Below are positions 5,536-63,509 of a stretch of DNA of 64,000 nucleotides, one piece after another. How positions within the stretch are numbered: the stretch's first letter is position 1; each line of letters opens with the position of its first letter. The stretch spans positions 10,638 through 74,637 of the forward strand of contig CAYJTG010000005.1 in assembly GCA_964373255.1 (NCBI GenBank), in the 5' to 3' direction. The stretch comes from an uncultured archaeon (GTDB taxonomy: Archaea > Aenigmatarchaeota > Aenigmatarchaeia > GW2011-AR5). Both the position numbers and the translations under genes were made by a program. The notes beneath the pieces are model-generated. The model ran no database searches and had not been told where the DNA came from. It worked only from the letters and a program-made list of their open reading frames with translations.

Positions 5536-5685
5536 AGTAGATCAAGATAGATTTGTGTTCGCCCGCTTATATAGTGAAACCAGAATTAGGAGTCCAAGAA
5601 AATTATATGCTGATTGTTTTCTTGGGCGACTATAAATGCTTTTATATCCTTCTGTTACATTATTTTCTCTAAAGGTGTAAAATAA

Positions 5686-8185: not shown

Positions 8186-9505
8186 ATGGAATACGAAAAA
8201 AGCGGCTATGAAAAGGAAGGCGACTTCTCGGTCGACGCGTCAAAAGTAGAAACGCCCTACAGGGCGTGGAGCATAAGCACGGGAGGAAGTATTTTATCGT
8301 CGCCTTCTATTGTTGACGGCATGATTGTCTTTGGCTCTAACGATACATACGTCTATGCGCTTGACCTCGAAGGAAATAAATTATGGAGCTATAAAACAAA
8401 CGATATTGTATTCTCCTCGCCGACAGCTTGTGGTGACACAATAGTCGTAGGGTCCTCCGACCAGCACCTCTACGCATTTTCCAGAAATGGCGATCTGAGG
8501 TGGAAATTCCTTACAGGCTCAAAGGTATGGTCGACGCCTCTTGTAGTTGATGGCGTTGTGTATATAGGATCCAACAACGGCATATTTCACGCGCTTTCAC
8601 TGGAAGACGGGAAAGAGCTGTGGAGATTTCATGCTTCTAATCAGGAATTTTTCATGTCGGCTTCCGCGGTCAACGATTCTATAATTTTTGGCAATATGAG
8701 CGGTCTTGTATACTGCGTTTCTTCTGATGGACGTCTCCTGTGGAAACTGCAGTGCGGTGAGCATACAACACAGACGCCTCTTGTGGTCAATAAAGATTGG
8801 GAAGAAATAGGCGGCTTCCATAAAAGGTCTTTTTATAGCATGCCACGCGATAACAAATCTCGGATCGTTATAGGTTCTGGGGACGGCTACATGAGATGCC
8901 TGGATGTAGAAGACGGAGCCTTGCTGTGGAAATTCTTTGCAAACAGCCTGAGCATTTCGTCGCCCGCTATTCAAGACAAAACAATATGCTTTGGCTCTCA
9001 CGATGGCAGATTATATTTGATTGATACAGACGGTCATATAAAATGGAAATTTCAGACAGGCAACAGAGTGGTCTCTTCGCCGCTTTTTCACGATGATACG
9101 GTCTATTTCGGCTCATCAGACAACAACGCTTATGCACTATCGCACGATGGCGAATTGTTGTGGCGCTTCCTTACCGACGGAGAAATCGTTTCATCACCCG
9201 TTGTTCACAAGGACGTTATTTATTTCGGCTCGTGGGACGGGCATCTCTATGCTTTATCCATCAAAGACTGCACGCTTCTCTGGAAATTCCGTACAGCGCT
9301 CGGCTTCCCGTCTTACATTAAAAAACCGACTATGACAGAAGAGAAGAAACAGGCAATGAATTTTATTGATACAGGAACAACGAAAGGCTACAATGTAAAA
9401 AGCTCAAATTATTCCCTGCTTACTGGAGAAATGACCAATGCGTTTTACACATCAAGCCCTATTTATAAGCGCAAGTCGCCTTACGATATTGGCGAGAAAT
9501 ATTAA
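8186..9505 (+). CDS. PQQ-like beta-propeller repeat protein
   Basis: At least 8 repeats of the pattern G.VY.GS.DG.L.A.....G...W.F.T (e.g. DTVYFGSSDNNAYALSHDGELLWRF). 439 aa; no obvious signal peptide. Confidence 0.7.
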   Translation: MEYEKSGYEKEGDFSVDASKVETPYRAWSISTGGSILSSPSIVDGMIVFGSNDTYVYALDLEGNKLWSYKTNDIVFSSPTACGDTIVVGSSDQHLYAFSRNGDLRWKFLTGSKVWSTPLVVDGVVYIGSNNGIFHALSLEDGKELWRFHASNQEFFMSASAVNDSIIFGNMSGLVYCVSSDGRLLWKLQCGEHTTQTPLVVNKDWEEIGGFHKRSFYSMPRDNKSRIVIGSGDGYMRCLDVEDGALLWKFFANSLSISSPAIQDKTICFGSHDGRLYLIDTDGHIKWKFQTGNRVVSSPLFHDDTVYFGSSDNNAYALSHDGELLWRFLTDGEIVSSPVVHKDVIYFGSWDGHLYALSIKDCTLLWKFRTALGFPSYIKKPTMTEEKKQAMNFIDTGTTKGYNVKSSNYSLLTGEMTNAFYTSSPIYKRKSPYDIGEKY

Positions 9506-15761: not shown

Positions 15762-16046
15762 CTACATTAAGGAAACGAACAGATAGAAGTTGCAAAGCAA
15801 CTTCAGTTTGCTTTTCCTTATAATCTAGACTTATTATGAAGCAAGTAAATAACCTGAATATTATAACTTGCTTCATTTACATGGAGAATCGAAGATTCTC
15901 CTGTACAATTTCGAATTCCAGGAATTCGAATTGTAATTGAAAATCTGAAGGATTTTCAAATTACAGGTGAAGCGTAGCTTCACCATGTATAGCAAACAAG
16001 AAATATAATATCTGATTCTTTTCTTGTTTAGCTATAATCCCTTCCT
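15762..16046. mobile_element. Composite element in the L37ae-rpoP spacer: family-H element interrupted by a full-length (~203 bp) XY-type hairpin element
   Basis: H left part ctacattaaggaaa...tctagactta (15762-15833), XY insert ttatgaagcaag...gtttagctata (15834-16036), H right end atcccttcct (16037-16046). XY carries 5 hairpin modules. Confidence 0.6.
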
Positions 16047-18998: not shown

Positions 18999-19129
18999 GC
19001 TCTGTTGAAAACCTATGAAAAAGCATCGACGTAGACCCTTACGTCTTATCGACGTAAGGGTCAGCTAGAGCTATCATCGAGAGATGATAGCTCTCACGTC
19101 GATGCTTTTATTGAGCATTTCAACAGAGC
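18999..19129. mobile_element. Family-A MITE-like palindromic element, copy A1 (131 bp)
   Basis: Terminal inverted repeat gctctgttgaaa / tttcaacagagc, enclosing inverted repeat aaagcatcgacgt / acgtcgatgcttt, two perfect 12-bp hairpins (gacccttacgtc-ttatc-gacgtaagggtc; agagctatcatc-gaga-gatgatagctct). Confidence 0.75.
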
Positions 19130-21752: not shown

Positions 21753-22061
21753 TGGGCTTGGCAGGATTTGAACCTGCGTCACAAGCTCCCAATGAGCATC
21801 AAATTATAGCTCTACAAGGAAAGAAACAAGATACAAGAAAGAACGAAGTTCTTTCTGTACAGCAAGAGCAAAGCTCTTGCTTGTATTACTTCCTTGTGAG
21901 CTATATGTGAAACCGGAAAAACATGTCCGGATTCTTTTCTGGTTTCACTATAAGCTCGGATCATAGTCGTATGAGATGCGAAGCATCTCTATGCTCTAAC
22001 CAAATTGTCCCACCTTCCGCTTTGATGCAGCTTTCTGGAAAGGTGCCTAGACTACAAGCCC
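21753..22061 (-). tRNA. tRNA-like gene with about 235 nt of structured intervening sequence (candidate multi-intron tRNA; anticodon not resolved, loop ATTGGGA suggests Pro/UGG)
   Basis: Minus strand: 5' GGGCTTG-TA-GTCTAGG... and 3' ...GTGAC-GCAGG-TTCAAAT-CCTGC-CAAGCCC-A. 7-bp acceptor helix, canonical T arm, discriminator A. Interior has several perfect hairpins. Confidence 0.5.
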
Positions 22062-22524: not shown

Positions 22525-22655
22525 GCTCTGTAGAAATGCTCGATAAAGAGCATCGACGTAGACCTATACGTCTCTTGACGTATAGGTCAGCTAGAGATAT
22601 CATCGATAGATGATATCTCTCACGTCGATGCTCTTGCATAGGTTTTCTACAGAGC
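22525..22655. mobile_element. Family-A MITE-like element, diverged copy A4
   Basis: Same architecture as A1. Both internal hairpins carry compensatory substitutions that keep perfect pairing. Confidence 0.65.
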
Positions 22656-34980: not shown

Positions 34981-35167
34981 GCTCTGTAGAAAACCTATGC
35001 AAGAGCATCGACGTGAGAGCTATTATCTTCTAAGATAACAAAGTTATCTTGAAGATTCAGGTTGACTTTGTCAACCATGAATCTGTCGATAATAGCTCTA
35101 GCTGACCTATACGTCAAGAGACGTATAGGTCTACGTCGATGCTCTTTATCGTGCATTTCTACAGAGC
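34981..35167. mobile_element. Family-A MITE-like element, copy A5 with inverted core plus a 70-bp insert
   Basis: Same TIRs and cgtcgatgc inverted repeats as A1. Internal hairpin pair is in reverse-complement order relative to A1/A2/A3. Also carries an extra insert ttctaagataacaaagttatcttgaa... Confidence 0.65.
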
Positions 35168-35220: not shown

Positions 35221-35847
35221 ATGATGATCACAAAGTTTATGATAATACCACTGGTACTGCTGGTCGCACTTGCCGCGCTTCTTGCTGGTAACCCTTCTGT
35301 TGCAGGGTTTTTTGAAACTTTGAAGGATAAGTTTTTCTCTATTTCAGAGGTTGGTTTACACAACAAAAACATTGAGTTTTCTGCTGTGTTTGATAGCTAT
35401 GAAAAAACAGATTTCGATGCTGTGGACCCGCTGAATATCACTGTTGTCGGTGTGACGAATGTCACGCTTACAAATGGCAATATTAACACCAAACAGACGC
35501 TCGTGATAAAAAATTACATGGGCACAGGTACCGTATCTGATAAATTTTTTCTCAACGGATCATTTGATCAGCTGATCGTTCAGGACGTATTCATCGGCAG
35601 GGATAAAATATTCATCGAGTCTGATTTCTCCGTTTTGGAAATAGAAAATTTGCACCTCAGACTAATAAATATGTCAAGTGCAGCAGGAACCCTGAATCTC
35701 ACTAACAGTTCCACGCAATTCGCGGGCTCCATAGAGATAAAGGAGCTGTCTGGAACGTTCGTTTTCAAGAAAGAGCCCAGGTCACTATCAATCACAGGCA
35801 CCGCCCAAAAGATATCTGTACCGGATGTGGGAATAGATATCGGATAA
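35221..35847 (+). CDS. Secreted hypothetical protein (N-terminal signal/TM)
   Basis: MMITKFMIIPLVLLVALAALLAGNPSVAG is signal-peptide-like; remainder Thr/Asn-rich beta-type sequence. Confidence 0.3.
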   Translation: MMITKFMIIPLVLLVALAALLAGNPSVAGFFETLKDKFFSISEVGLHNKNIEFSAVFDSYEKTDFDAVDPLNITVVGVTNVTLTNGNINTKQTLVIKNYMGTGTVSDKFFLNGSFDQLIVQDVFIGRDKIFIESDFSVLEIENLHLRLINMSSAAGTLNLTNSSTQFAGSIEIKELSGTFVFKKEPRSLSITGTAQKISVPDVGIDIG

Positions 35848-37548: not shown

Positions 37549-37767
37549 AATTAAAGATACACGAAAAAGAATTAAAGATGCTAGTTTTTCCAGTATCTTA
37601 TTACATTAAACTTATTGTATCTGTTTAGCTCCTAAGGTAACTCACTAGTGTATCAAAGACATTTAATCCTTGCAGACTCCACGTGGCAAAACAGCTCATT
37701 ACGACTTCGTGGACCTTGGCTCCTTCCAAGCTTCTCAGACCTCCCATGGTTTTCCTTTCTGCCTTAA

Positions 37768-38088
37768 TTATTGTTTCTGCCTTAATTGCAATTCTTTGAT
37801 AATTTTGCCTTGAATTTCTGGATCACGCAATTCGTCAAGTTCAATTTCGTAGACTGGTTGATACCTCCTGCCATCTGTACCAATAATCTTGAATTTTGGA
37901 CCCCAAATTCTCGTATGCCAATATTCTAAAATTGATTTTGGTGTATCTGAACTATCTAAATAAACCTCGTAAGGTTCAAATCCTAGTTTTCTAACTACCG
38001 TATCGATTCTATATAATGGTGTGTTAGCTTGTGTTTTGTATTTTGTCATATTGGGTTGTATTTCGTATTCCATAATTTTTCCCCCCAT
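37768..38088 (-). CDS. Hypothetical protein (AT-rich islet)
   Basis: 106 aa; ~33% GC coding sequence; no motif. Confidence 0.3.
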   Translation of the reverse strand: MGGKIMEYEIQPNMTKYKTQANTPLYRIDTVVRKLGFEPYEVYLDSSDTPKSILEYWHTRIWGPKFKIIGTDGRRYQPVYEIELDELRDPEIQGKIIKELQLRQKQ

Positions 38089-38117
38089 ACAGTTCCAATC
38101 TGGAAATTTTGCACTCT

Positions 38118-38555
38118 CTAACTGTATGATGCAATACCCCTCGAGCGTATATTATATAAAAGAGGAAATGTTCTCCTCTGGTAAATAAATGTGTAACCGT
38201 TAGCTTGTATTAAATCGAGATACCCATCTATCGCTGCACTTATTGCCCTCCTTATTGTATTGCCATTGTTTAATTTTGGTGTAAATGTCTTTATTTGTTC
38301 TTCAATCGAAATTGACTCAAACTCGCTTTTTCGGATGTATTCTTCACTTCTAGGATCTTCTAATCCAGGCCATAGATGTAACTTAGGAAGACCTTTAAAT
38401 TGAGGTGTTACATGTTTTTTCCATTCAAGGTATATTTTTCCAATACCCGGAACTCTTTTTTCCATTCCGTCAATGAACTTCTCATATTCCTTGCTGTTAA
38501 ATCCGGGGCTAAAAATATACCCGCACAGAGCGCCATAATTCCATCTTTCTATCAT
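38118..38555 (-). CDS. Hypothetical protein (AT-rich islet)
   Basis: 145 aa; 4-nt overlap with the upstream gene (operon-like); no motif. Confidence 0.3.
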   Translation of the reverse strand: MIERWNYGALCGYIFSPGFNSKEYEKFIDGMEKRVPGIGKIYLEWKKHVTPQFKGLPKLHLWPGLEDPRSEEYIRKSEFESISIEEQIKTFTPKLNNGNTIRRAISAAIDGYLDLIQANGYTFIYQRRTFPLLYNIRSRGIASYS

Positions 38556-39067
38556 TTTTGGTCGACTCCGTTTGATTTTTTTGTTTTTATGGTGGAGAAT
38601 TCAGCATCATATGTTTTGTCATCACAAACTATTCGAGCAACCGTATCATATGTTATTGTATTGCCTGTTATCCATCTATCTATAAAAATATAATTAATTC
38701 GGCCATCAATGAATTTTTTCCCTCGACTATTATCCACGTTAACCCAGATTGCGGATCTATTGTCTATTCCTCTGGCTTTTATCTCTGGACTAAGAACCTC
38801 GTATATTTGAGAATTCCACCCTTTAACTTGTAGTCTAGTCGTGGGGTCCAACCTATAATCTGATACAAGTTTACCCTCTAAAGTATCGCCATTTGAAGAT
38901 ATGAATCTTGTAATTGGAATATTCTGCTCTATTGTTTGCTGTTTGCTTTTTTCTTTATTTTCACTATCACCCGTATATTGTTTAATTAAGTATCCTCCCA
39001 CTAGTAATGCAAGTGAAAGTGCAGTCATATAAGGTAATTTTTTAATTCCTTTCATTTTAACACCCAT
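38552..39067 (-). CDS. Secreted hypothetical protein (signal peptide) (AT-rich islet)
   Basis: N-terminal KKLPYMTALSLALLVGGYLIKQ signal-like segment. 171 aa. Confidence 0.3.
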   Translation of the reverse strand: MGVKMKGIKKLPYMTALSLALLVGGYLIKQYTGDSENKEKSKQQTIEQNIPITRFISSNGDTLEGKLVSDYRLDPTTRLQVKGWNSQIYEVLSPEIKARGIDNRSAIWVNVDNSRGKKFIDGRINYIFIDRWITGNTITYDTVARIVCDDKTYDAEFSTIKTKKSNGVDQK

Positions 39068-39120
39068 ATTAAAGTTAACTACTAAACAGATACAAGTAAC
39101 CTAGTCTTTAAATATATTAT

Positions 39121-39912
39121 GTGGTTGCTATAGATACCACATATTTAAGGCTTACGAACCAGATAATTTTCATGAAGACAGAAAACGAGGAAATTTTGCA
39201 GATGCTGGATTTAACAGAGATCGAGAGTAAGACTTATCTGACATTGCTAGATATAGGAACGTCTAAAGCAGGTACTATAAGCAATCGCGCGCATATTCAT
39301 AGAAGAAATACTTATGACGCTCTGGAAAATTTATTACAGAAGGGGCTTGTCACGTCATTTGTTTCTAACAATCAAAAATTTTGGGCTGCTGTAAACCCAA
39401 AGAAATTATACCTCTTATTAAAAGAAAAAGAATACGCCATATCGAAAATAATGCCAGAGTTAATTTCTAACTTCAATTCCAATAAAGGCAAACAAATTGT
39501 AGAAGTATTTGAAGGTCTTGGGGGTATGAAAACATTTTTTGATGACATGGCTAACTCAAAGAAGGATGTGTACATGCTTTTTGCTACGGGGAGAGCTTAT
39601 TTGAGAATGAAATTGTACATGGAAAGCTGGGATAAAAGAATAAACAATTCAGGAATTAAAGTTAGAGTTCTTTTAAATTCGGATGCAATCAAAGAACCTT
39701 ATCAAAATTATAAATATGGTGAAATTAAAATTTTGCAGAATACATTTTCACCTACGCAGATATTCATTTATGGCAATAAAACAGCTATTGCCATATGGTC
39801 GGATGAACCGATAGCTGCCTTAATTACAAGCAATGAAATTACTAAAGGATTTAAAAAATATTTCGGTTTTCTTTGGAAATTTGGCAAAAGAGTTCATTAT
39901 AATAAAATCTAA
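39121..39912 (+). CDS. TrmB-family transcriptional regulator (wHTH + C-terminal TrmB domain)
   Basis: N-terminal LTEIESKTYLTLLDIGTSKAGTISNRAHIHRRNTYDALENLLQKGLV is TrmB-type wHTH. Paralogue of 57093-57911. Confidence 0.6.
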   Translation: MVAIDTTYLRLTNQIIFMKTENEEILQMLDLTEIESKTYLTLLDIGTSKAGTISNRAHIHRRNTYDALENLLQKGLVTSFVSNNQKFWAAVNPKKLYLLLKEKEYAISKIMPELISNFNSNKGKQIVEVFEGLGGMKTFFDDMANSKKDVYMLFATGRAYLRMKLYMESWDKRINNSGIKVRVLLNSDAIKEPYQNYKYGEIKILQNTFSPTQIFIYGNKTAIAIWSDEPIAALITSNEITKGFKKYFGFLWKFGKRVHYNKI

Positions 39913-40097
39913 GGAGATACAGGCATAGTCATGCAAGGAAATAATCAGTATATAATTATACCCTTGCTGACTATATGTGAAACCAGTCATAGCATGTCCA
40001 GATTATTTACTGGTTTCACTATAAACCGCATTACAAACATCTTTATACAACATAGTTCTAACTTCTAACAGAAAACGATAAAAAATTATGAAAATGA

Positions 40098-42794: not shown

Positions 42795-43667
42795 ATGTCG
42801 GTCGAACTAGGCATTCTCTTCGCATTAGCAGCCCTGATTTTCTGGGGTTTCGGCGATTTTCTTATTCAGAGATCAACAAGAAAATTCGGAGACTGGGAAA
42901 CATTATTTATTATTACAACATTTGGTGCAGTCATCCTAACGCCGTTTGTTTACAACGACCCGCAATTTGCACTTTTGTTCGACGACAAAACATTTCTTAT
43001 GTTCATAGGTATATCTGTAGTTCTCCTGATCGCAGCCATTCTGGATTTCGAAGCACTCAAAAAAGGCAAGATCGCGGTTGTCGAACCTATTTATGCCCTT
43101 GAGGTCCCGATATCCGCTATTTTAGCACTTATGATAATTAACGAGTCGATAGAATTTCTGCAGATAATTGTCCTATCGATACTTGTAATAGGCTTGATCA
43201 TGATTTCGCTGAAGTCCCATCATTTTTCAAGGAGGGCATGGGTCGAGAAAGGTGTTGTTCTTGCGGTCATCGCCACAATTTTTATGGGTTCTGTTAATTT
43301 CCTTATAGGGTTTGCGTCAAGGATCACAAATCCGCTTTTGGCCAACTGGTTTGTTGACGTGTTTCTGGCGGTAATCAGCCTGTTTTACATCATGTCGAAT
43401 AAAAGATTCTCTAAACTGTTGAGCGATTTCAAAGGCAACAAACAACTCATCCTGGCTGTAAGTACTTTTGACAATCTCGCCTGGATTGCCTTCGCAATTG
43501 CGACGACCTTTATACCGATTGTAATTGCACTCGGATTTTCAGAAAGTTATATAGCGCTTGCTGCCCTTCTCGGCTTCTTAATAAACAAGGAGAGGCTTAT
43601 GAAGCATCAAAAAATCGGCCTTGTTATCGTACTATTAAGTGCTTCTGCCCTCGCACTTATAATATGA
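42795..43667 (+). CDS. EamA/DMT-superfamily transporter (10 TM)
   Basis: Two EamA-like halves of 5 hydrophobic helices each. 290 aa. Confidence 0.6.
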   Translation: MSVELGILFALAALIFWGFGDFLIQRSTRKFGDWETLFIITTFGAVILTPFVYNDPQFALLFDDKTFLMFIGISVVLLIAAILDFEALKKGKIAVVEPIYALEVPISAILALMIINESIEFLQIIVLSILVIGLIMISLKSHHFSRRAWVEKGVVLAVIATIFMGSVNFLIGFASRITNPLLANWFVDVFLAVISLFYIMSNKRFSKLLSDFKGNKQLILAVSTFDNLAWIAFAIATTFIPIVIALGFSESYIALAALLGFLINKERLMKHQKIGLVIVLLSASALALII

Positions 43668-43727
43668 TCCAAATAAATAATCAGGATACTAAATTTGGAT
43701 CACAGTAGTTCATTAATAATGACAATC

Positions 43728-46650: not shown

Positions 46651-46846
46651 GCACTGTCAACTTATTATGAAGCAAGTAAATAATCTGGATATTATAGCAA
46701 ACAAGAAATATAATACCTGATTCTTTTCTTGTTTAGCTATAAGGGTGGTTAGCCATTGCTAACCACCCAGAAAAGGCTGTTGCCAAAGCAGATAGACGCA
46801 CTTTAGTGCGTCAGTTTGTTTCAACAGCCGCTAAGTTGACAGTGCC
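46651..46846. mobile_element. Family-Z TIR element, copy Z2, with two nested insertions
   Basis: TIRs gcactgtcaactta / taagttgacagtgcc. A 79-bp XY-type element (ttatgaagcaagtaaataatctg...gtttagctata) inserted after caactta. A second hairpin module (agatagacgcactttagtgcgtcagtttgtttc) lies inside the ggctgttgcc...aacagcc loop. Confidence 0.6.
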
Positions 46847-48910: not shown

Positions 48911-49041
48911 GCTCTGTTGAAAACCTATGAAAAAGCATCGACGTAGACCCTTACGTCTTATCGACGTAAGGGTCAGCTAGAGCTATTGTCAAAAGACAAT
49001 AGCTCTCACGTCGATGCTTTTATTGAGCATTTCAACAGAGC
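48911..49041. mobile_element. Family-A MITE-like element, copy A2, filling the S24e-S27ae spacer
   Basis: Identical TIRs and outer stems to A1. Second hairpin carries compensatory change (ctattgtc-aaaa-gacaatag versus ctatcatc-gaga-gatgatag). Confidence 0.75.
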
Positions 49042-52307: not shown

Positions 52308-52546
52308 CGAATAAACCCGATTCCAACTATCATAGAAAACTTTTTAAAGACGTTTCTGTTTTTTGTTCTGTATGTTAAGTTAATGTGATCCAAATAAATA
52401 ATCGTGATACTAAATTTGGATCACAGTACATAGCGAAACAAAGTTTCGCTTGTACAGGTAAAGCTTTGCTTTACCATGTACTGTGCACAAGGAATGTAAT
52501 ATACCGATTCATTCCTTGTAGCACATTAAAAGAAAACAGAGCCCGT

Positions 52547-57092: not shown

Positions 57093-57911
57093 TCAATCGT
57101 TCTTTGTAGAAGCAATCTTCCATAGATGTTCAAAATGATTTCTGTACGTATCGGCAATTTTCTTGTTCTGTATCATTATCGCAGTTGGAGGAGTATCCCA
57201 TGAAACAACGACAATTTTATCGCCATATACGAATGTATTTGTTGGATTGAATTCATCACCATCAAGAAATCTGTATGTAGTTGTTGATGCAGTTTTTTTA
57301 TCAAACAAGAATATACGTTTCTTTTTGATTGTTATTACACGTTCTCGGATATTATTATGCTTCAAATTTCTGAAGTGCTGTTTCATAAATAATTGAAGAT
57401 TTTCATTGTATTTTTCGTCGTCTATCCCTGTTATAAGGACTTCTTTTTTTGTTTTTACTATATCTTTCAGAAAATACTTTATACCCTCGATGCTTTTGAA
57501 AACTTCGACCCTTGTATCTTCTCTGGGTAGCTTTGTCATAGCTTCCAATTCAGGCAATATTTTTTCAATTTCATTCTCTTGAAATTCCAATTCTTTCTTT
57601 TTCTCTTCTAGATAATGTTTTATTTTAACTGGCGGAGTCGCTTGAAAATATTTTTTGGCATCTTTGTATATGTGTGTAACAAGGCCTTTTTTCATTAACT
57701 GTTCCAATTTATCATAAACATGTACACGGTATATACCTGTTTTCTGGCCTATTTCGTACGCTGTAATAGGACCGGATTTCAACAAAATTATGTATACGTT
57801 GACCTCATTTTCTGTGAGTCCTATTTTTTTCAATATTGATGTTTCCATAGTTATTACTCTATCACTATTGCTTAAATATCTATATATTTTCGTACTATAA
57901 TAGTACGACAT
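57093..57911 (-). CDS. TrmB-family transcriptional regulator (paralogue of 39121-39912)
   Basis: LTENEVNVYIILLKSGPITAYEIGQKTGIYRVHVYDKLEQLMKKGLV wHTH; C-terminal block aligns with the 39121 protein. Confidence 0.6.
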   Translation of the reverse strand: MSYYYSTKIYRYLSNSDRVITMETSILKKIGLTENEVNVYIILLKSGPITAYEIGQKTGIYRVHVYDKLEQLMKKGLVTHIYKDAKKYFQATPPVKIKHYLEEKKKELEFQENEIEKILPELEAMTKLPREDTRVEVFKSIEGIKYFLKDIVKTKKEVLITGIDDEKYNENLQLFMKQHFRNLKHNNIRERVITIKKKRIFLFDKKTASTTTYRFLDGDEFNPTNTFVYGDKIVVVSWDTPPTAIMIQNKKIADTYRNHFEHLWKIASTKND

Positions 57912-57950
57912 AATTCTAAATATTAATTATTACTATATAGTTATAATTAA

Positions 57951-58757
57951 ATGGAGTGTGTTAAAATGAGCTCATACGGAGAAATGATAGAGTCTCTTAA
58001 GAAAAGTATGGTGGATGATCATATAGCTGTCAATAGGTCGAGAAATCCTGTATATGGTAAACTTGGGAATATAGGCAAAGGCAGACTTTCGTATGTGATT
58101 ACACAGTACACAATATTTCCAAGGAATATTGTTTCTTATCTAGAAAATGTGCGGGAAGAGATGAAAGAATTTGATGATGTGTACGATGAGTTAGAAAGGA
58201 ATATAAAAGAGGAGAAAGGAAGCGCGACAAAAGACATCAAGCACTACGATATACTGACACAAGGAATTAAAGACGAGTTTGGGTTAGATATAACCATTAT
58301 TTGTCCAACGCCTACTACTGCTACATTCGATATGGGAATGTACGAGGCAACTTTCATGTCTGATGATAAATATGCTATAATGGGAGCAACATATGCCATG
58401 GAAGCGACAGCTGTACCAGAGTTGGAAATAGTAAAAGAATTGACAAATGAGCTTTCACGACTTTTCTATAAAAGAGGGATTTTCAGCGAAACACTGAAAG
58501 GGTTTTTTGATATACATATAAACGATCTCGAAATTGGTCATGAGAACGGCTTGAGGGATGCTTGTGAAAAATATGTAAATGATGAGAAAACGCAGGAAAG
58601 CTTCGTGAATGGATTCAATCTTGTTATGAACACAATGGATAAGTGGTGGGCTGGGTTGAATAGAGAATCTGAGATGTTTGGAAAAAATTTCAAGAACATC
58701 TATAAAAAAATGCGACAAAAAAGATCAAAAAACGCGATTTTCTGTGAATTTTCATGA
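57951..58757 (+). CDS. TenA/PqqC-like (haem-oxygenase-fold) protein
   Basis: All-helical 268-aa protein with E...H / Y...E spacing reminiscent of TenA/PqqC. Weak call. Confidence 0.3.
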   Translation: MECVKMSSYGEMIESLKKSMVDDHIAVNRSRNPVYGKLGNIGKGRLSYVITQYTIFPRNIVSYLENVREEMKEFDDVYDELERNIKEEKGSATKDIKHYDILTQGIKDEFGLDITIICPTPTTATFDMGMYEATFMSDDKYAIMGATYAMEATAVPELEIVKELTNELSRLFYKRGIFSETLKGFFDIHINDLEIGHENGLRDACEKYVNDEKTQESFVNGFNLVMNTMDKWWAGLNRESEMFGKNFKNIYKKMRQKRSKNAIFCEFS

Positions 58758-59056
58758 AATTGCTGCGAAAGCTCGTCACAATAGTTCAAAAAGAAGAGAG
58801 TTATATAGATGATATTAAGAATTTTGTGCCACAAGATGAAGTTTATAGATTAGAAGACGAACAAAAAATAAGAATACATCAACATTTCTATAAAATAGAC
58901 CCAGAAATTTATTGTACAGGGCCAGTTTTAGGAAGAACAATAGGACAAATAATTGATGATAATGAACTCTGGCCAGAAAATTCTCCTGACGAAGACGTGT
59001 GCGGAATTTACAAACTGATAATAATTAATAATGAAAACGACAATAGTTCATCATGA
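58754..59056 (+). CDS. Hypothetical protein, 100 aa (overlaps both neighbours by 4 nt)
   Basis: Translationally coupled between the TenA-like and Nnr2 genes; no motif. Confidence 0.25.
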   Translation: MKLLRKLVTIVQKEESYIDDIKNFVPQDEVYRLEDEQKIRIHQHFYKIDPEIYCTGPVLGRTIGQIIDDNELWPENSPDEDVCGIYKLIIINNENDNSSS

Positions 59057-59880
59057 TATCAAAATCCATCCTGAAGAAGATATACAGACCCCGGCCAGCC
59101 TGGTCACGCAAGGGCGATTTCGGCAGATTATTGGTCGTCGGCGGCTCTGCGCTCTACAGTGGCTCGCCAATATTTAACGCATTGGCTGCTTACCGAAGCG
59201 GATGCGATCTTGTAAAGATAATCGCTCCGGAGAAGACAGCTTACAGCATTAGATCTTATTCTCCTGACCTCATTGCTTATCCTTTGAAAGGAGAATACCT
59301 AAATAAGAAACATATTAATCAAATCCTCTCTGAACAAAAGAATTCGGATGCAATGGTCATAGGCGGCGGACTATCGAGAGAAAAGGCGACGCTTGGTGCG
59401 GTTCGTGCGATAATCAAGAAAACAAGGATTCCAGCTGTTGTCGATGCAGATGCATTGCACGCAGTAAATTTCCGCTTGCGGAGCAATTTTGTTCTAACGC
59501 CGCATTCTTATGAATTCTACAGGTTAAGCGGGAAAAGAGTATACGCAGATCTGAGAGAGCGGTCTCGTGCAGCAGGAGAATTGGCAAAAAAACTTGGCTG
59601 CACAATACTTCTAAAAGGCCATATAGATATTATAACTGACGGCAGTAAAACAGCAATAAATAAGACGGGCAGCCCATTCATGACAAAGGGCGGTTTCGGT
59701 GACACGCTGGCAGGCGTATGCGGCGCATTGCTAGCGCGCGGCGTGAATACATTCGACGCAGCGTGCGCAGCCGCATATATTAATGGCCGCGCCGGCGATT
59801 TGGCTGCACAGAAATATGGCGAGGGCGTGCTTGCTTCTGACTTGATAAATGAAATACATAATGTGATAAAGGAAAAATAG
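59053..59880 (+). CDS. ADP-dependent NAD(P)H-hydrate dehydratase (YjeF C-terminal domain, Nnr2)
   Basis: KGDFGRLLVVGGSALYSGSPIFNALAAYRSGCDLV...MVIGGGLS...LLKGH.DIITDG...FMTKGGFGDTLAG matches YjeF_C. Confidence 0.7.
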   Translation: MISKSILKKIYRPRPAWSRKGDFGRLLVVGGSALYSGSPIFNALAAYRSGCDLVKIIAPEKTAYSIRSYSPDLIAYPLKGEYLNKKHINQILSEQKNSDAMVIGGGLSREKATLGAVRAIIKKTRIPAVVDADALHAVNFRLRSNFVLTPHSYEFYRLSGKRVYADLRERSRAAGELAKKLGCTILLKGHIDIITDGSKTAINKTGSPFMTKGGFGDTLAGVCGALLARGVNTFDAACAAAYINGRAGDLAAQKYGEGVLASDLINEIHNVIKEK

Positions 59881-60014: not shown

Positions 60015-61193
60015 ATGACGTTTTTGAATCAGATCGGGGACGGCGGCGGAATTCTAGGCACGCTTATATGGTTCGTTCTATTCTTTGTGCTCATATTTCT
60101 CTATCCGCGCCTTATGCTATCGCAGCTTATCTACAAGATAGAGCAGTCGGCCGTAAAGATGGAAAACATGTCGAAGGCATCGATAAAAATGGTCGCAAAG
60201 AAGGTCGACAAGAGCGCAGGAAAGGATCTGAAGACAAAGATCGAGGATTTCACTGATTTCTTTGTCGTTGAGCCATCTGCCATCGACCCGTACGGCCTGG
60301 TCAAGAAAGTCGACCAGACGATAAGAGGCATGGAGACAAGGTTCTCGGAATTCACAGACGAGATTTCAGGCAGCAAGAGCTATCAGGAGAAACAGCAAAT
60401 AAACTACAGTCTCCGCGCAGCTATCGGGCTCAGGATGATATCCAAGATCGTCCGCCATTATGTGGAGATCGCAAAGAAATTCAAGAACCTCCAGATCGCG
60501 ATGATACTTCAGATGCAGCTGCCTATTATAGAGAAGCTAGCCGAAGGCGAGCTGAAAGGCGCAGAAGCCTTCCTAAGTAATCTTCCAATCGGCGACTCAA
60601 TAGGACCATTAGTCGCCGCCTCGCTCGTCGATGACAGCAAAGAAATAGCTGAGGATATCATGATGGGCACTACGGAAATCGAAGGTCGGAAGTGCTTTGT
60701 TCTGAAAGCGAAGGGTCAGGGCCCGCACCTCGGGCGCGTTGACGAAGCCATAGTAAAAATAATGAAAAAGAACAGGATCGCCCGTGTTATCACCATAGAC
60801 GCAGCGCAGAAGCTCGAGGGTGAAAAGTCTGGGTCTGTAGCCGAGGGCGTCGGCTTTGCAATGGGCGGCATAGGACAGAGGGAGCTAATAGAAAACATGC
60901 TTATTCCAAGGCAAATACCGCTGGACAGCATTGTCGTGAAGGTCGGTATGACCGAAGCAATCGCCCCAATGAGAAAGGATATCTTTAACGGATTGCCAAA
61001 GGCGCAGGATTGCATCAAAAAAGCAGTGAAGCGCGCGAAGAAGGGGCAGAAAGTTATGATTATAGGCATCGGAAATTCCTCGGGCACAGGCGACAACAAG
61101 AAGTGCGTCGAGCCATTGGAAAAAATCGTCGAAAACATCGAGAAGAAGGCCAAGGAAGAAGAACTAAAGCAGAAAAAGAAGGGCTGGTTCTAG
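60015..61193 (+). CDS. Conserved archaeal membrane-anchored protein (DUF1512-like)
   Basis: N-terminal TM (ILGTLIWFVLFFVLIFLY), long soluble domain, Lys-rich tail. Assignment from memory of family architecture only. Confidence 0.3.
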   Translation: MTFLNQIGDGGGILGTLIWFVLFFVLIFLYPRLMLSQLIYKIEQSAVKMENMSKASIKMVAKKVDKSAGKDLKTKIEDFTDFFVVEPSAIDPYGLVKKVDQTIRGMETRFSEFTDEISGSKSYQEKQQINYSLRAAIGLRMISKIVRHYVEIAKKFKNLQIAMILQMQLPIIEKLAEGELKGAEAFLSNLPIGDSIGPLVAASLVDDSKEIAEDIMMGTTEIEGRKCFVLKAKGQGPHLGRVDEAIVKIMKKNRIARVITIDAAQKLEGEKSGSVAEGVGFAMGGIGQRELIENMLIPRQIPLDSIVVKVGMTEAIAPMRKDIFNGLPKAQDCIKKAVKRAKKGQKVMIIGIGNSSGTGDNKKCVEPLEKIVENIEKKAKEEELKQKKKGWF

Positions 61194-61379
61194 ACTTCTA
61201 TGTTAAATCGTTCTTTTAGAACATTTAGCAGCAAGTCAGGATTGGTCCAGAAACCTTTTGTATCATCTTCAATATCGTACTTCAAAAAGAAATAATCACA
61301 AGTCCCTTTCCAATAATCTCTAACATCAGCGTCTGATGACAAACCAATAACGACACTCTAAAGCAGCAGTTTCATTTAT

Positions 61380-61544
61380 CGCCTTATCATATCTTTCCAA
61401 GCCTACTTTTTTGCAAACTTTCTCTAGAAATTCCATGTGATCGTAATCATCTTCAACAAGAAGGACACTTAATTCAGAAGCTTTCATGGTCAAAAATATT
61501 AAGACAATCTATAAAAAGTAAATACAACAGACATTTATGCACCC
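61380..61544 (-). pseudogene. Possible remnant of a CheY-like receiver domain (54 codons), below ORF-track cutoff
   Basis: Hand translation: MKASELSVLLVEDDYDHMEFLEKVCKKVGLERYDKAINETAALECRYWFVIRR*. LLVEDD is the signature N-terminal acidic pocket of receiver domains; no C-terminal partner follows. Confidence 0.2.
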
Positions 61545-61722
61545 CAATCGTAATTTTCCCGTGGTTTTAGCAAACGCTTTAATAGTTTTGTAGGTTATTT
61601 TTTTGTTACTGGTCAAAAGATACAAAGAGATACATTTATAAAGTTTATGTACAATGAAAATGTAGACAAATTTCAAAAAAATCACGAAAAATAGGAAGGG
61701 ATTAAGTCTAGATTATAAGGGT

Positions 61723-62553
61723 GTGGATATGGTTGCAAGCAATAAGACACTGGATATGCTGAAAACAATCGGCTTGAATAAGTACGAACGCAATTTGTGG
61801 ACAGCGCTTCTTTCTAGAGGTGCGTCTACAGCCGGAGAATTAAGTGATATTTCCAACGTTCCTCGTTCTAGATGCTACGACGTGTTAGAGTCATTGGCAA
61901 CAAAAGGCTTCATTGTAATACAGCCTGGAAAGCCGATAAAATACGTTGCCATGAACCCTAAGGAGGCTTTGGAGCGCGTCAAAAAGAAGATTCGTGAAGA
62001 CGCGGTTGAGACAACGGAAAAGATCGAGCGATTCCTTAAGAGCGACTCGATAAGGGAGCTTGAAAGGCTGCACAAGGAAAATATGAAGGTCATGAACCCT
62101 GAGGACCTTACGGGCGCACTGAAGGGCAGGTACGCCATGCACCAGCAGGTTGAGACGATGCTGAAAAATGCAAAGAAATCCGTGAAGCTTCTTACCACAG
62201 ACCGCGGCCTGAAAGAATTGCTCGATACCCACGGTCCTTTGCTAAAGAGGGTTTCCAATTCTGGCGTGAAAATCCAGATCGCTGCGCCCGTCAGAAAGGA
62301 TGCATTAGATACTGTAAAAGAGCTGGCACAGTACGCGCAGGTAAGAAATATCAGTGATGTTGAGATGGTTGAAAAATTTGCAGGGCGACTTTTCGTTGTT
62401 GACGGCCAGGAATTCGTGCTTGGCCTGACAGACGACACAAAAATACACCCGACACAGGATGTGGCTTTGTGGACGCAGAGCTCGCACGCATCTTCTTCGG
62501 TTTTCGAGCCCATGTTTGAGCTCGTCTGGCATCATGCTAAGCCCGTTAAGTGA
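61723..62553 (+). CDS. TrmB-family transcriptional regulator (third copy)
   Basis: LNKYERNLWTALLSRGASTAGELSDISNVPRSRCYDVLESLATKGFI wHTH plus TrmB C-terminal domain. 276 aa. Confidence 0.6.
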   Translation: MDMVASNKTLDMLKTIGLNKYERNLWTALLSRGASTAGELSDISNVPRSRCYDVLESLATKGFIVIQPGKPIKYVAMNPKEALERVKKKIREDAVETTEKIERFLKSDSIRELERLHKENMKVMNPEDLTGALKGRYAMHQQVETMLKNAKKSVKLLTTDRGLKELLDTHGPLLKRVSNSGVKIQIAAPVRKDALDTVKELAQYAQVRNISDVEMVEKFAGRLFVVDGQEFVLGLTDDTKIHPTQDVALWTQSSHASSSVFEPMFELVWHHAKPVK

Positions 62554-62876
62554 TAAGTATGGATGGCGACGAAGTATATCTTTCTTCTCCTGAATCTAGT
62601 GTAGACCCAAGACTAATAAAATTAGATTTTCATAGAAGAATGAAAGCGTATCATGAAAGCAAACAATTTCCATTCGGTGAACTTAATAATGGTAATATAT
62701 TTTATGACGCTTTTCTTAATGATATGTTCCATTCCGTAGCTGCAGACTATCATGGCACCTTGCTTGGTTTTTATGCGTATCGTATGTTAAGGCGAAAATA
62801 TTCTATTGGAAAAATAATTAGAGAAGTACGAAATATGCAGCAGCAAGCCAAAAAAGAAAAAGCTGCAGCGTACTAA
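62550..62876 (+). CDS. Hypothetical protein, 108 aa
   Basis: 4-nt overlap with the preceding TrmB gene; no motif. Confidence 0.25.
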   Translation: MISMDGDEVYLSSPESSVDPRLIKLDFHRRMKAYHESKQFPFGELNNGNIFYDAFLNDMFHSVAADYHGTLLGFYAYRMLRRKYSIGKIIREVRNMQQQAKKEKAAAY

Positions 62877-63377: not shown

Positions 63378-63509
63378 GCTCTGTTGAAAACCTATGAAAA
63401 AGCATCGACGTAGACCCTTACGTCTTATCTACGTAAGGGTCAGCTAGAGCTATCATCAACAGACGATAGCTCTCACGTCGATGCTTTTTGTTGAGCATTT
63501 CTACAGAGC
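63378..63509. mobile_element. Family-A MITE-like element, copy A3
   Basis: Near-identical to A1 over the first 75 bp; right hairpin variant (ctatcatc-aaca-gacgatag); right TIR tttctacagagc. Confidence 0.75.

What the first reader, a model, noticed from the sequence alone, without database searches (positions are those of the whole stretch)
37600..40000. AT-rich (~33% GC) accessory islet with three unknown genes and a TrmB regulator, and a second TrmB-associated islet at 57090-59060
Genes 37768-38088, 38118-38555 and 38552-39067 (one with a signal peptide, two overlapping by 4 nt) and TrmB paralogue 39121-39912 are markedly more AT-rich than the flanking GTPase and methyltransferase genes. They are followed by a copy of the gtgaaacc hairpin module (39971-40023). 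A paralogous TrmB (57093-57911, C-terminal domains alignable) heads another AT-rich block (TenA-like, 100-aa ORF, Nnr2-like). A third TrmB (61723-62553) has its own 108-aa overlapping companion. Repeated regulator-plus-cargo units with atypical composition suggest horizontally acquired cassettes. The 37.7-39.1 kb trio, with no homology I can recognise, is the best place here to look for an undescribed function, for example a secreted effector with partner proteins.
Basis: partly seen in the sequence, partly recalled or inferred. Interest (0 to 1): 0.55.

Follow-up and report, generated by a model that had tools for sequence, protein, structure and literature searches.

The report
AT-rich accessory gene insert, DPANN archaeon
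A 2.5-kb AT-rich stretch carrying a TrmB-type regulator and three genes of unknown function is a lineage-specific insertion into an otherwise conserved housekeeping gene block of an Aenigmatarchaeota (DPANN) archaeon; this is a real but fairly ordinary "dark-matter" islet whose function cannot yet be read.

Summary
Genes 37768-38073/38088(-), 38118-38555(-), 38552-39067(-) and the TrmB gene (39121/39172-39912,+) have GC 0.33-0.36, against a gene mean of 0.43.

The window comes from an Aenigmatarchaeota MAG. In about 12 related genomes the order GluRS-methyltransferase-GTPase-PHP is kept, with the methyltransferase next to the GTPase. Here 2.55 kb sits between them. The same junction holds other cargo elsewhere:
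- a truncated tyrosine-recombinase gene in the closest relative;
- a 5.4-kb surface-protein block;
- a LuxR-type regulator;
- small ORFs.

So this is an insertion into a variable slot.

Two of the three unknown proteins have no detectable relative among 5.8 billion protein clusters. The 145-aa protein has four distant relatives among 1.84 billion representatives. All four are AT-rich for their genomes. In two of the three other contexts seen, as in the window, the gene follows one for an unrelated exported protein.

No Pfam, PHROG, PADLOC, NCBIfam, PDB, virus or plasmid match was found, and the structure models were poor.

TrmB1 and TrmB2 are paralogues with the same divergent layout (TATA box, inverted repeat, TATA box). 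The third TrmB is a conserved core gene with normal GC.

Low GC equals the intergenic level and is common among family-less ORFs, so composition alone does not prove horizontal transfer.

The "gtgaaacc hairpin" is one copy of a dispersed two-hairpin repeat.

The parts
37549..37767 (.). Left spacer between the GTPase start and the end of the trio. Contains one arm of a perfect 14-nt inverted repeat (37615-37628, TTGTATCTGTTTAG).
   Evidence: No RNA-structure signal (z = +1.1 and -0.1). No coding remnant. No similarity to the closest relative beyond the GTPase start.
37768..38088 (-). Gene A: a 101-aa soluble protein (likely start ATG 38073; the ORF extends to 38088). No detectable relative.
   Evidence: ORF. 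Only a self-hit among 5.8e9 clusters. No Pfam, PHROG, PADLOC, NCBIfam or PDB match. No viral or phage match. Annotated frame scores best of six.
38118..38555 (-). Gene B: a 145-aa soluble protein, member of a very small uncharacterised family with conserved motifs YG..CGWIF.P, LWPGLE, SIEEQ, FTP.L and FPLLY.IRS.
   Evidence: Four distant relatives among 1.84e9 representatives, E 1e-15 to 4e-4. Alignment A1 has 13 invariant columns. No known family. AF2 pLDDT 51. Foldseek found nothing at E<=0.001.
38552..39067 (-). Gene C: a 171-aa protein (or 167 aa from the second ATG). It has a Lys-rich N-terminus, a hydrophobic segment (signal peptide or membrane anchor) and a strand-rich C-terminal part. 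It overlaps gene B by 4 nt.
   Evidence: maximum hydropathy at residues 10-28. Only a self-hit. AF2 pLDDT 39, with helix 13-35 followed by strands. No family, PDB, virus or phage match.
39068..39171 (.). Shared divergent control region:
- TATA-like TTTAAATA at 39107-39114, facing the trio;
- inverted repeat ATTATGTGGT-N10-ACCACATATT at 39116-39145;
- TATA-like ATATTTAAG at 39141-39149, facing TrmB1;
- second arm of the 14-nt repeat at 39082-39095, near the predicted start of trio transcription.
   Evidence: Sequence. Repeat and box positions. Function is inferred only.
39121..39912 (+). TrmB1: a short TrmB-family winged-helix regulator (ORF from GTG 39121; likely start ATG 39172, giving 246 aa).
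   Evidence: PF01978, 51 bits against a cut-off of 25.6. PDB 3qph matches the N-terminal 100 residues only. Far below the NCBIfam TrmB, TrmBL1 and TrmBL2 equivalog cut-offs. Identity is 36% to a Woesearchaeota TrmB, 30% to TrmB2 and 24% to TrmB3.
39922..40030 (+).
   Evidence: About 80% identical to copies in other Aenigmatarchaeota genomes. 7 of 29 pairs show compensatory changes. Model R1 finds 8 copies in the window and copies in L013, L015, L018 and L020. No Rfam match.
57093..57911 (-). TrmB2, a paralogue of TrmB1 (likely start ATG 57848, giving 251 aa). GC 0.314.
57849..57950 (.). Control region of unit 2: CTTAAATAT at 57871-57879 (a TATA box facing TrmB2), a palindrome within 57888-57910 (core CGTACTATAATAGTACG), and AT-rich TATA-like sequence about 57915-57926 facing the cargo.
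   Evidence: A perfect palindrome arm of 9 was reached in 40 of 2000 shuffles.
57951..59056 (+). AT-rich cargo of unit 2: a DUF3865/haem-oxygenase-like protein (57951-58757) and a family-less acidic 100-aa ORF (58754-59056). They are translationally coupled to the normal-GC Nnr gene (59053-59880).
61723..62876 (+). Not part of the accessory set. TrmB3 (61723-62553) is a conserved core TrmBL2-like gene with normal GC. Its lineage-specific AT-rich 108-aa companion is at 62550-62876.
   Evidence: Orthologues score 335-454 bits in 5 relatives and lie beside the homologue of gene 60015-61193, which was found in 8 relatives. TrmBL2 is the best NCBIfam model and covers the full length. GC values.

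Best explanation
The stretch 37549-40097 is a lineage-specific accessory insertion in a variable "slot" between the methyltransferase and GTPase genes of an Aenigmatarchaeota (DPANN) genome.

It carries one self-contained regulatory unit. A short TrmB-family winged-helix regulator (TrmB1) is transcribed divergently from a three-gene operon, C171 -> B145 -> A101.

The two transcription units share a control region of about 100 nt. An inverted repeat there lies between two oppositely facing TATA-like boxes. The most likely mode of action is that TrmB1 binds this repeat and sets the expression of both itself and the operon.

The operon most likely encodes a small cell-envelope module:
- C171, an exported or membrane-anchored protein;
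- B145, a cytoplasmic partner translationally coupled to C171. B145 belongs to a rare family that follows unrelated exported-protein genes in two other archaeal genomes;
- A101, a small soluble protein.

The DNA was most likely acquired from another AT-rich DPANN archaeon. Low GC by itself does not prove this.

What is shown: the insertion, the variable slot, coding status, TrmB family membership, the paralogy and shared layout of units 1 and 2, and the rarity of the cargo.

What is inferred: the operator and regulation, the envelope role, and the donor.
For: **Insertion and variable slot.**
- GluRS-MTase-GTPase-PHP is collinear in L005, L010, L012-L014, L016, L017 and L019, with an MTase-GTPase spacing of 45-556 nt. 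The window has 2.55 kb there.
- Other junction contents: L009 has 5.4 kb, including a 982-aa Cys/Thr-rich secreted protein. L004 has a frameshifted tyrosine-recombinase C-terminus. L006 has a LuxR-type HTH gene, L005 a 145-aa ORF, and L011/L012 a shared 104-aa ORF.

**Composition.**

**Coding status.**, and for B the alignment.

**Rarity of the cargo.**

**B-family context.**
- The window has C171 overlapping B by 4 nt.
- In L068 a 459-aa protein with a signal peptide and a C-terminal anchor ends 25 nt upstream of B.
- In L067 a 179-aa signal-peptide protein ends 100 nt upstream of B.
- B homologues lie 5-12 GC points below their host loci.

**Regulator.**
- PF01978 match.
- The best relative among held loci is a Woesearchaeota TrmB from a 30%-GC genome: 36% identity over the full length.

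**Shared architecture with TrmB2.** The same ATATTTAAG box lies 22-31 nt upstream of both revised ATGs, with an inverted repeat between the divergent TATA-like boxes.

**Fixation.** The islet is identical in four sequencing runs.

**Literature.** "Dark-matter islands" are common in archaeal genomes and are enriched in integrated and conflict-related genes (PMC6393860).
Against: - The window has no integrase, tRNA, att-like direct repeats or viral/plasmid genes, so the route of acquisition is not shown.
- Islet GC (0.33-0.36) equals the genome's intergenic GC (0.36). Low GC is shared by scattered family-less ORFs. AT-richness could therefore reflect weak selection on young or fast-evolving genes rather than a foreign origin.
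- The three cargo genes never co-occur elsewhere, so a functional link between them rests on operon structure alone.
- The inverted repeat in the TrmB1 control region is not statistically exceptional: the best perfect arm is 4 nt at short spacing, and the 10-nt arms carry one mismatch.
- The B-next-to-exported-protein pattern rests on three loci. A fourth locus (L066/L069) lacks it.
- Structure models are too poor to support any fold assignment.
Confidence: 0.55

Rival explanations
1. There was no horizontal transfer. The four genes are resident, fast-evolving or recently arisen lineage-specific genes. Their AT-richness reflects the genome's mutational bias acting where selection on codon usage is weak. 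They reached this junction by local rearrangement.
For: - Intergenic GC is 0.36, about the same as islet GC.
- 7 of the 11 ORFs with GC<0.37 lack any Pfam family. Family-less ORFs are AT-richer overall (p=0.014).
- Unit 2 joins AT-rich genes to a normal-GC Nnr gene with 4-nt overlaps.
- This genome is rearranged relative to its relatives. The pair formed by the 60015-61193 homologue and TrmB3 lies next to the PHP/35221 block in them but about 22 kb away here.
- The window has no mobility genes.
Against: - TrmB1 and TrmB2 are not orphans, yet they are the most AT-rich genes (0.327, 0.314). The core paralogue TrmB3 is at 0.48.
- TrmB1 is closer to a Woesearchaeota protein (36%) than to either in-genome paralogue.
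- B-family genes are AT-rich relative to four different host genomes.
- 7 of the 17 family-less ORFs have normal GC.
- The closest relative has an integrase remnant at the same junction.
Confidence: 0.25
2. The islet is the decayed remnant of an integrated mobile element (an integrative plasmid, provirus or transposable cassette) that has lost its integrase. The perfect 14-nt inverted repeat flanking the trio would be what is left of terminal repeats.
For: - TTGTATCTGTTTAG at 37615-37628 and its reverse complement at 39082-39095 bracket exactly the three cargo genes.
- A truncated tyrosine recombinase sits at the same junction in L004.
- A dispersed hairpin repeat lies at the right border.
- Archaeal dark-matter islands are often integrated elements (PMC6393860).
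Against: - The window has no integrase or transposase remnant.
- No target-site duplication, and the repeat does not extend beyond 14 nt.
- Long-range 14-mer inverted repeats occur about 9 times in the window, so three within 5 kb is only mildly unusual.
- TrmB1 lies outside the repeat-bounded segment yet is equally AT-rich.
- No PHROG, IMG/VR, phage or plasmid relatives.
Confidence: 0.12
3. The trio is a small conflict system (toxin-antitoxin, anti-virus defence, or a symbiont-host effector with an immunity protein) under a dedicated regulator.
For: - Small, fast-evolving, AT-rich, lineage-specific genes in a variable slot, with a local wHTH regulator, are typical of conflict loci (PMC6393860).
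- One product is exported.
Against: - No PADLOC hit for the trio.
- No toxin, nuclease or immunity domain in Pfam or NCBIfam.
- The genes do not co-occur elsewhere.
- B145 has no obvious catalytic residues: its invariant columns are aromatic, Gly or Pro.
Confidence: 0.08

Closest known systems
Archaeal "dark-matter" genomic islands / accessory islets at recombination hot spots (Makarova et al., PMC6393860)
   Same: A contiguous block of uncharacterised, lineage-specific genes with atypical composition. It interrupts conserved synteny, and the same slot holds different cargo in different lineages.
   Different: It is very small (four genes). This genome has no integrase, tRNA target or att repeats, and no recognisable defence or mobile-element signature genes.
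TrmB-family transcription regulators (PF01978; TrmB, TrmBL1 and TrmBL2 of Thermococcales, TrmB of Halobacterium)
   Same: An N-terminal winged-helix TrmB domain. The gene is divergent from the operon it probably controls, and an inverted repeat lies in the promoter region.
   Different: It is about 246 aa and lacks the sugar-binding C-terminal domain of TrmB/TrmBL1 (about 340 aa). It scores 30-43 bits against equivalog cut-offs of 500-650. The adjacent cargo is not a sugar transporter or a glycolytic gene. The effector and the operator are unknown.
REP/MITE-like dispersed hairpin repeats of prokaryotic genomes
   Same: The 39922-40030 element is short, palindromic, intergenic and multi-copy, and it mostly follows the 3' ends of genes.
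   Different: It is about 80% conserved across genomes whose orthologous proteins are only 55-60% identical. It has two hairpins with compensatory changes. It has no Rfam family, and one copy lies inside a putative interrupted tRNA-Gln gene.

Membership tests
TrmB family (Pfam PF01978) | N-terminal winged-helix TrmB domain scoring above the Pfam gathering score | tested here: met
   TrmB1 51 bits, TrmB2 62.9 bits and TrmB3 72.8 bits, against a cut-off of 25.6.
Sugar-sensing TrmB / TrmBL1 (NCBIfam equivalogs NF040851, NF047390, NF047392) | Full-length match that includes the C-terminal sugar-binding domain (about 340 aa) | tested here: not met
   TrmB1 scores 43, 33 and 30 bits against cut-offs of 650, 600 and 500. 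For the two Thermococcales models (TrmBL1, TrmB) only the first 100-115 residues align; for the Halobacterium model the alignment runs to about residue 185. TrmB1 is 246 aa long. PDB 3qph aligns to residues 8-101 only.
TrmB family | Binds a palindromic operator in its target promoters | not testable with these tools
   Candidate inverted repeats lie at 39116-39145 and 57888-57910, between divergent TATA-like boxes. Binding has not been tested.
Genomic island / horizontally acquired insert | Absent from the syntenic position in related genomes | tested here: met
   MTase and GTPase are adjacent (45-556 nt apart) in L005, L010-L017 and L019. No trio or TrmB1 homologue was found in any of 62 related loci.
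Genomic island / horizontally acquired insert | Composition atypical for the host genome | tested here: inconclusive
   GC is 0.33-0.36 against a gene mean of 0.43 (z from -1.2 to -1.9). However, this equals intergenic GC (0.36) and is shared by other family-less ORFs.
Genomic island / integrative element | Integrase or other mobility gene, a tRNA target, and flanking direct repeats | tested here: not met
   No tyrosine-recombinase similarity in the window. No tRNA. No flanking direct repeats, only a 14-nt inverted repeat. An integrase remnant is present at the same junction in L004 only.
Provirus / virus-derived genes | Homology to viral protein families or viral contigs | tested here: not met
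   No PHROG hit with E below 0.03. No IMG/VR relatives. No tblastn hit in GenBank phages.
Known anti-phage defence systems (PADLOC) | Match to a defence-system protein model | tested here: not met
   No hit for any of the three cargo proteins. TrmB1 gives only weak HTH-level matches to CARF-HTH models (E 0.02).

The most novel reading that the evidence does not exclude
The B145 family (YG..CGWIF.P / LWPGLE / SIEEQ / FTP.L / FPLLY.IRS) is a previously undescribed cytoplasmic partner, such as a chaperone or adaptor, for exported surface proteins of DPANN archaea. It travels horizontally with changing exported "clients". In this genome the C171-B145-A101 operon would be a TrmB-switched surface module used in the interaction with the host cell.
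Probability: 0.1. Interest if true: 0.55.

Novelty: new member of a known kind. Interest (0 to 1): 0.3.

Why it matters
DPANN archaea are largely uncultured episymbionts. How they attach to and exploit their hosts is mostly unknown. Lineage-specific, regulated surface-protein modules in variable genomic slots are plausible places for such functions.

This locus offers three concrete things:
- A clean, synteny-defined variable slot (MTase|GTPase) that can be compared across Aenigmatarchaeota.
- A tiny new protein family (B145) with a recurring position next to exported-protein genes.
- Two paralogous TrmB units with a shared promoter layout, which could be used to define the operator of this short TrmB subfamily.

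The islet itself is an ordinary example of archaeal genomic dark matter. No function can yet be assigned.

Tried and rejected
**Homology searches that found nothing.**
- Word-indexed search of 5.8e9 protein clusters for all three cargo proteins gave only self-hits.
- Pfam, PHROGs, PADLOC and NCBIfam on the trio gave nothing. Pfam on all B-family members also gave nothing.
- PDB sequence and profile searches gave nothing below E 0.1.
- IMG/VR scans and tblastn against GenBank phages and PLSDB plasmids gave no relatives.

**Structure prediction.**
- AlphaFold2 of B145 with a 5-sequence alignment gave pLDDT 51. C171 as a single sequence gave pLDDT 39.
- Foldseek of the B145 model against PDB had a best E of 1.6, which is meaningless.

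**Mobility and boundary marks.**
- The integrase fragment from L004 gave no hit against the window.
- No tRNA and no Rfam family mark the borders of the islet.
- The 219-nt left spacer has no RNA-structure signal and no pseudogene trace.

**Strain variation.** The Logan contigs are 100% identical to the window, so no dN/dS could be computed and no islet-free variant was seen.

**The 14-nt inverted repeat as a TrmB operator.** I rejected this as the primary reading. The flanking TACT/AGTA half-sites are not conserved at the second copy. The repeat also has no near-matches (3 or fewer mismatches) above chance elsewhere in the window.

**The hairpin as an islet-specific att or boundary mark.** Rejected. 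It is a dispersed repeat and is absent from the MTase-GTPase junction in relatives.
Full report
**1. What the window is.**

The best relatives of the GTPase next to the finding are all Aenigmatarchaeota MAGs (74-53% identity). Woesearchaeota and other DPANN lineages follow at about 40%. The same DNA, 100% identical, occurs in Logan assemblies of four sequencing runs and on a 96-kb NCBI contig. The window therefore comes from a DPANN archaeon of the Aenigmatarchaeota.

**2. The observation.**

Window GC is 0.429. Over 70 ORFs the mean GC is 0.428 (sd 0.053) and the mean GC3 is 0.466.

| Feature | GC | GC3 |
|---|---|---|
| 37768-38088(-) | 0.340 | 0.27 |
| 38118-38555(-) | 0.363 | 0.31 |
| 38552-39067(-) | 0.339 | 0.25 |
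| 39121-39912(+) TrmB1 | 0.327 | 0.32 |
| GTPase (flank) | 0.462 | not listed |
| Methyltransferase (flank) | 0.409 | not listed |
| GluRS (flank) | 0.477 | not listed |

The 4-nt overlap (38552-38555) and the TrmB domain (PF01978, 51 bits) are real.

Only the 171-aa protein has an export-type N-terminus. It has a Lys-rich start, a hydrophobic stretch at residues about 10-28, and a strand-rich remainder.

The three unknown ORFs behave as genes. Each scores best in its annotated frame out of six under a codon model trained on the window's other genes. Three ORFs of at least 101 codons never arise in 500 shuffles of the region. Gene B is also conserved across distant relatives.

The second AT-rich block is real for three genes:
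- TrmB2, 0.314;
- a DUF3865/haem-oxygenase-like protein, 0.363;
- a 100-aa ORF, 0.314.

It does not include the Nnr-like gene (0.469) or the third TrmB (0.480).

**3. It is an insertion into a variable slot.**

tblastn of the neighbourhood's proteins against 10-kb flanks from related genomes shows the order GluRS-MTase-GTPase-PHP. This holds in L005, L010, L012, L013, L014, L016, L017 and L019. In those genomes the MTase stop and the GTPase start are only 45-556 nt apart. In the window 2,549 nt (37549-40097) lie between them. None of the 62 related loci encodes a relative of gene A, gene C or a close TrmB1.

The same junction is variable in other lineages:
- L009 holds 5.4 kb: two paralogous proteins of about 290 aa and a 982-aa Cys/Thr/Ser-rich secreted protein.
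- L004, the closest relative, has a truncated and frameshifted tyrosine recombinase C-terminus directly upstream of the GTPase. It reads ...[38 protein letters not shown]....
- L006 has a LuxR-type HTH gene plus a small ORF.
- L005 has a 145-aa ORF.
- L011 and L012 share a 104-aa ORF.

The window itself has no integrase trace, no tRNA and no flanking direct repeats.

**4. The cargo.**

*Genes A and C.* A (101 aa) and C (171 aa) find only themselves among 5.8 billion protein clusters.

*Gene B.* B (145 aa) also finds only itself in that search. An exhaustive HMMER scan of 1.84 billion representatives found four distant relatives, with E from 1e-15 to 4e-4. Their alignment shows conserved motifs: YG..CGWIF.P, Y..W, LWPGLE, SIEEQ, FTP.L and FPLLY.IRS.

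*Context of the B family.* The relatives sit in unrelated archaeal contigs, and neither A nor C is nearby. In two of the three other contexts seen, and in the window, the B gene directly follows a gene for a non-homologous exported protein on the same strand:
- Window: C171, overlapping B by 4 nt.
- L068: a 459-aa protein with a signal peptide and a C-terminal anchor.
- L067: a 179-aa signal-peptide protein.

The locus L066/L069 lacks this pattern. Every B-family gene lies 5-12 GC points below its host locus.

*Negative results.* No Pfam, PHROG, PADLOC, NCBIfam or PDB match was found. There were no relatives in IMG/VR, GenBank phages or PLSDB plasmids. AlphaFold2 models were poor, with pLDDT 51 for B and 39 for C. 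Foldseek returned nothing usable.

**5. The regulators.**

The three TrmB genes share 24-32% identity.

TrmB3 is a core gene:
- It has normal GC.
- Its best full-length NCBIfam model is TrmBL2.
- Orthologues scoring 335-454 bits occur in five relatives. They always lie next to the homologue of gene 60015-61193.

TrmB1 and TrmB2 form a separate subfamily of short proteins, about 250 aa. TrmB1 is 36% identical over its full length to a Woesearchaeota TrmB from a 30%-GC genome (L025). It is 30% identical to TrmB2.

Both annotated N-termini are probably too long. The conserved TrmB N-terminus begins at ATG 39172 and ATG 57848. An identical ATATTTAAG box lies 22-31 nt upstream of each, which would fit leaderless transcripts (inference).

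With these starts both units have the same layout: regulator, TATA-like box, inverted repeat, TATA-like box, cargo.
- Unit 1 repeat: ATTATGTGGT-N10-ACCACATATT, 39116-39145.
- Unit 2 repeat: core CGTACTATAATAGTACG, within 57888-57910. A perfect arm of 9 nt was matched in 40 of 2000 shuffles.

This supports local control of each cargo by its TrmB. Binding has not been tested.

**6. Is low GC evidence of transfer?**

Only partly. Intergenic GC is 0.36, the same as the islet.

Of the 47 ORFs tested against Pfam and included in the GC comparison, the 17 without a family are AT-richer than the 30 with one. The means are 0.390 and 0.427, Mann-Whitney p=0.014. Seven of the 17 family-less ORFs nevertheless have normal GC.

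Unit 2 couples AT-rich genes to a normal-GC gene by 4-nt overlaps.

Four points favour a foreign origin:
- The two non-orphan TrmB genes are the most AT-rich genes.
- TrmB1's nearest known relative is in an AT-rich DPANN phylum.
- B-family genes are AT-rich in four host genomes.
- A sister lineage has an integrase remnant at the same junction.

I rate acquisition from another DPANN archaeon as more likely than resident divergence, but it is not proven.

**7. The hairpin.**

The "gtgaaacc" hairpin (39977-40019) is the second hairpin of an element of about 105 nt at 39922-40030. This element is about 80% identical to copies in L013, L015 (two copies) and L020, and to window 21854-21959. Compensatory changes occur in 7 of its 29 pairs.

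A covariance model finds 8 copies in the window, all intergenic. Most lie just downstream of a gene and in the same orientation. Rfam has no match. The element is absent from the MTase-GTPase junction of relatives. It is therefore a dispersed repeat that happens to lie at the right edge of the islet, not an islet-specific mark.

**8. Unexplained.**

A perfect 14-nt inverted repeat (37615-37628 / 39082-39095) brackets exactly the trio. Two more perfect 14-15-nt inverted repeats link the GTPase gene with the islet. Given about 9 such long-range repeats in the window, three within 5 kb is only mildly unusual. I leave this open.

**9. Verdict.**

This is a real, synteny-defined accessory islet with a local TrmB-type regulator and three undescribed genes, one of them probably exported. 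Its kind is well known: archaeal dark-matter islets in variable slots (PMC6393860). The content is new but uninterpretable with current data.

Ratings: interest 0.3; novelty "new member of a known kind".

Noticed in passing
window 39922-40030, 21854-21959, 15825-15909, 15955-16040, 52422-52532, 46656-46745, 5546-5641, 43651-43727; also L013:12003-12110, L015:7124-7231 and 8623-8729, L018:6183-6285, L020:20487-20596: A dispersed two-hairpin element of about 105 nt (hairpin 1 ATAGTCATGCAAGGAA...TTCCTTGCTGACTAT; hairpin 2 GTGAAACCAGT...ACTGGTTTCAC, followed by TATAA). It is about 80% conserved between genomes whose proteins are only 55-60% identical. 7 of its 29 pairs show compensatory changes. 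It has no Rfam family. It may be a structured small RNA, a 3'-end element or a MITE-like repeat.
   Followed up: partly
window 21753-22061 (- strand): tRNA-like ends 309 nt apart: 5' GGGCTTGTAGTCTAGG... and 3' ...GCAGGTTCAAATCCTGCCAAGCCCA. After in-silico removal of about 235 nt starting near position 20-23, ARAGORN calls tRNA-Gln(UUG). One copy of the two-hairpin element lies inside the removed stretch. Unaided ARAGORN finds no tRNA in the whole 64 kb, and Rfam finds no tRNA here. This may be a tRNA gene with a very long non-canonical intron.
   Followed up: partly
window 19005-19125, 22532-22652, 34987-35162, 48917-49037, 63383-63505: A second dispersed structured repeat with five copies. 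It has an outer stem AAAAGCATCGACGT/ACGTCGATGCTTTT that encloses two inner hairpins, with compensatory changes between copies. The copy at about 35.0 kb has an extra insert.
   Followed up: partly
window 23072/23197, 46651/46832, 56263/56338: A third family of inverted repeats with arms CACTGTCAACTTAA. It occurs three times in intergenic regions.
   Followed up: no
L004:123-497: The closest relative (GTPase 74% identical) has a truncated, frameshifted tyrosine-recombinase C-terminus directly upstream of the GTPase. This is the junction where the window carries the islet.
   Followed up: yes
L009:2756-8132: The same junction in another Aenigmatarchaeota genome holds 5.4 kb: two paralogous proteins of about 290 aa and a 982-aa secreted protein that is rich in Cys, Thr and Ser.
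   Followed up: partly
window 35221-35847 versus 60015-62553: In eight relatives the homologue of gene 60015-61193 lies close to the GTPase/PHP/35221 block, and in five of them TrmB3 follows it. In this genome the pair lies about 22 kb away. This indicates a rearrangement with a breakpoint near 35 kb, where a copy of the AAAAGCATCGACGT repeat also sits.
   Followed up: no
L067:81-1007 and window 57951-58757: One B145-family member (L067) lies two genes downstream of a haem-oxygenase-like/DUF3865-type protein. By eye, from its sequence motifs only (not tested), this looks like the same family as the cargo gene next to TrmB2 in the window. It may be coincidence.
   Followed up: no
window 37756-37791: An 18-nt tandem duplication, TTAAGGCAGAAA(CAATAA/GGAAAA) as read on the minus strand, spans the stop codon of gene A.
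   Followed up: no
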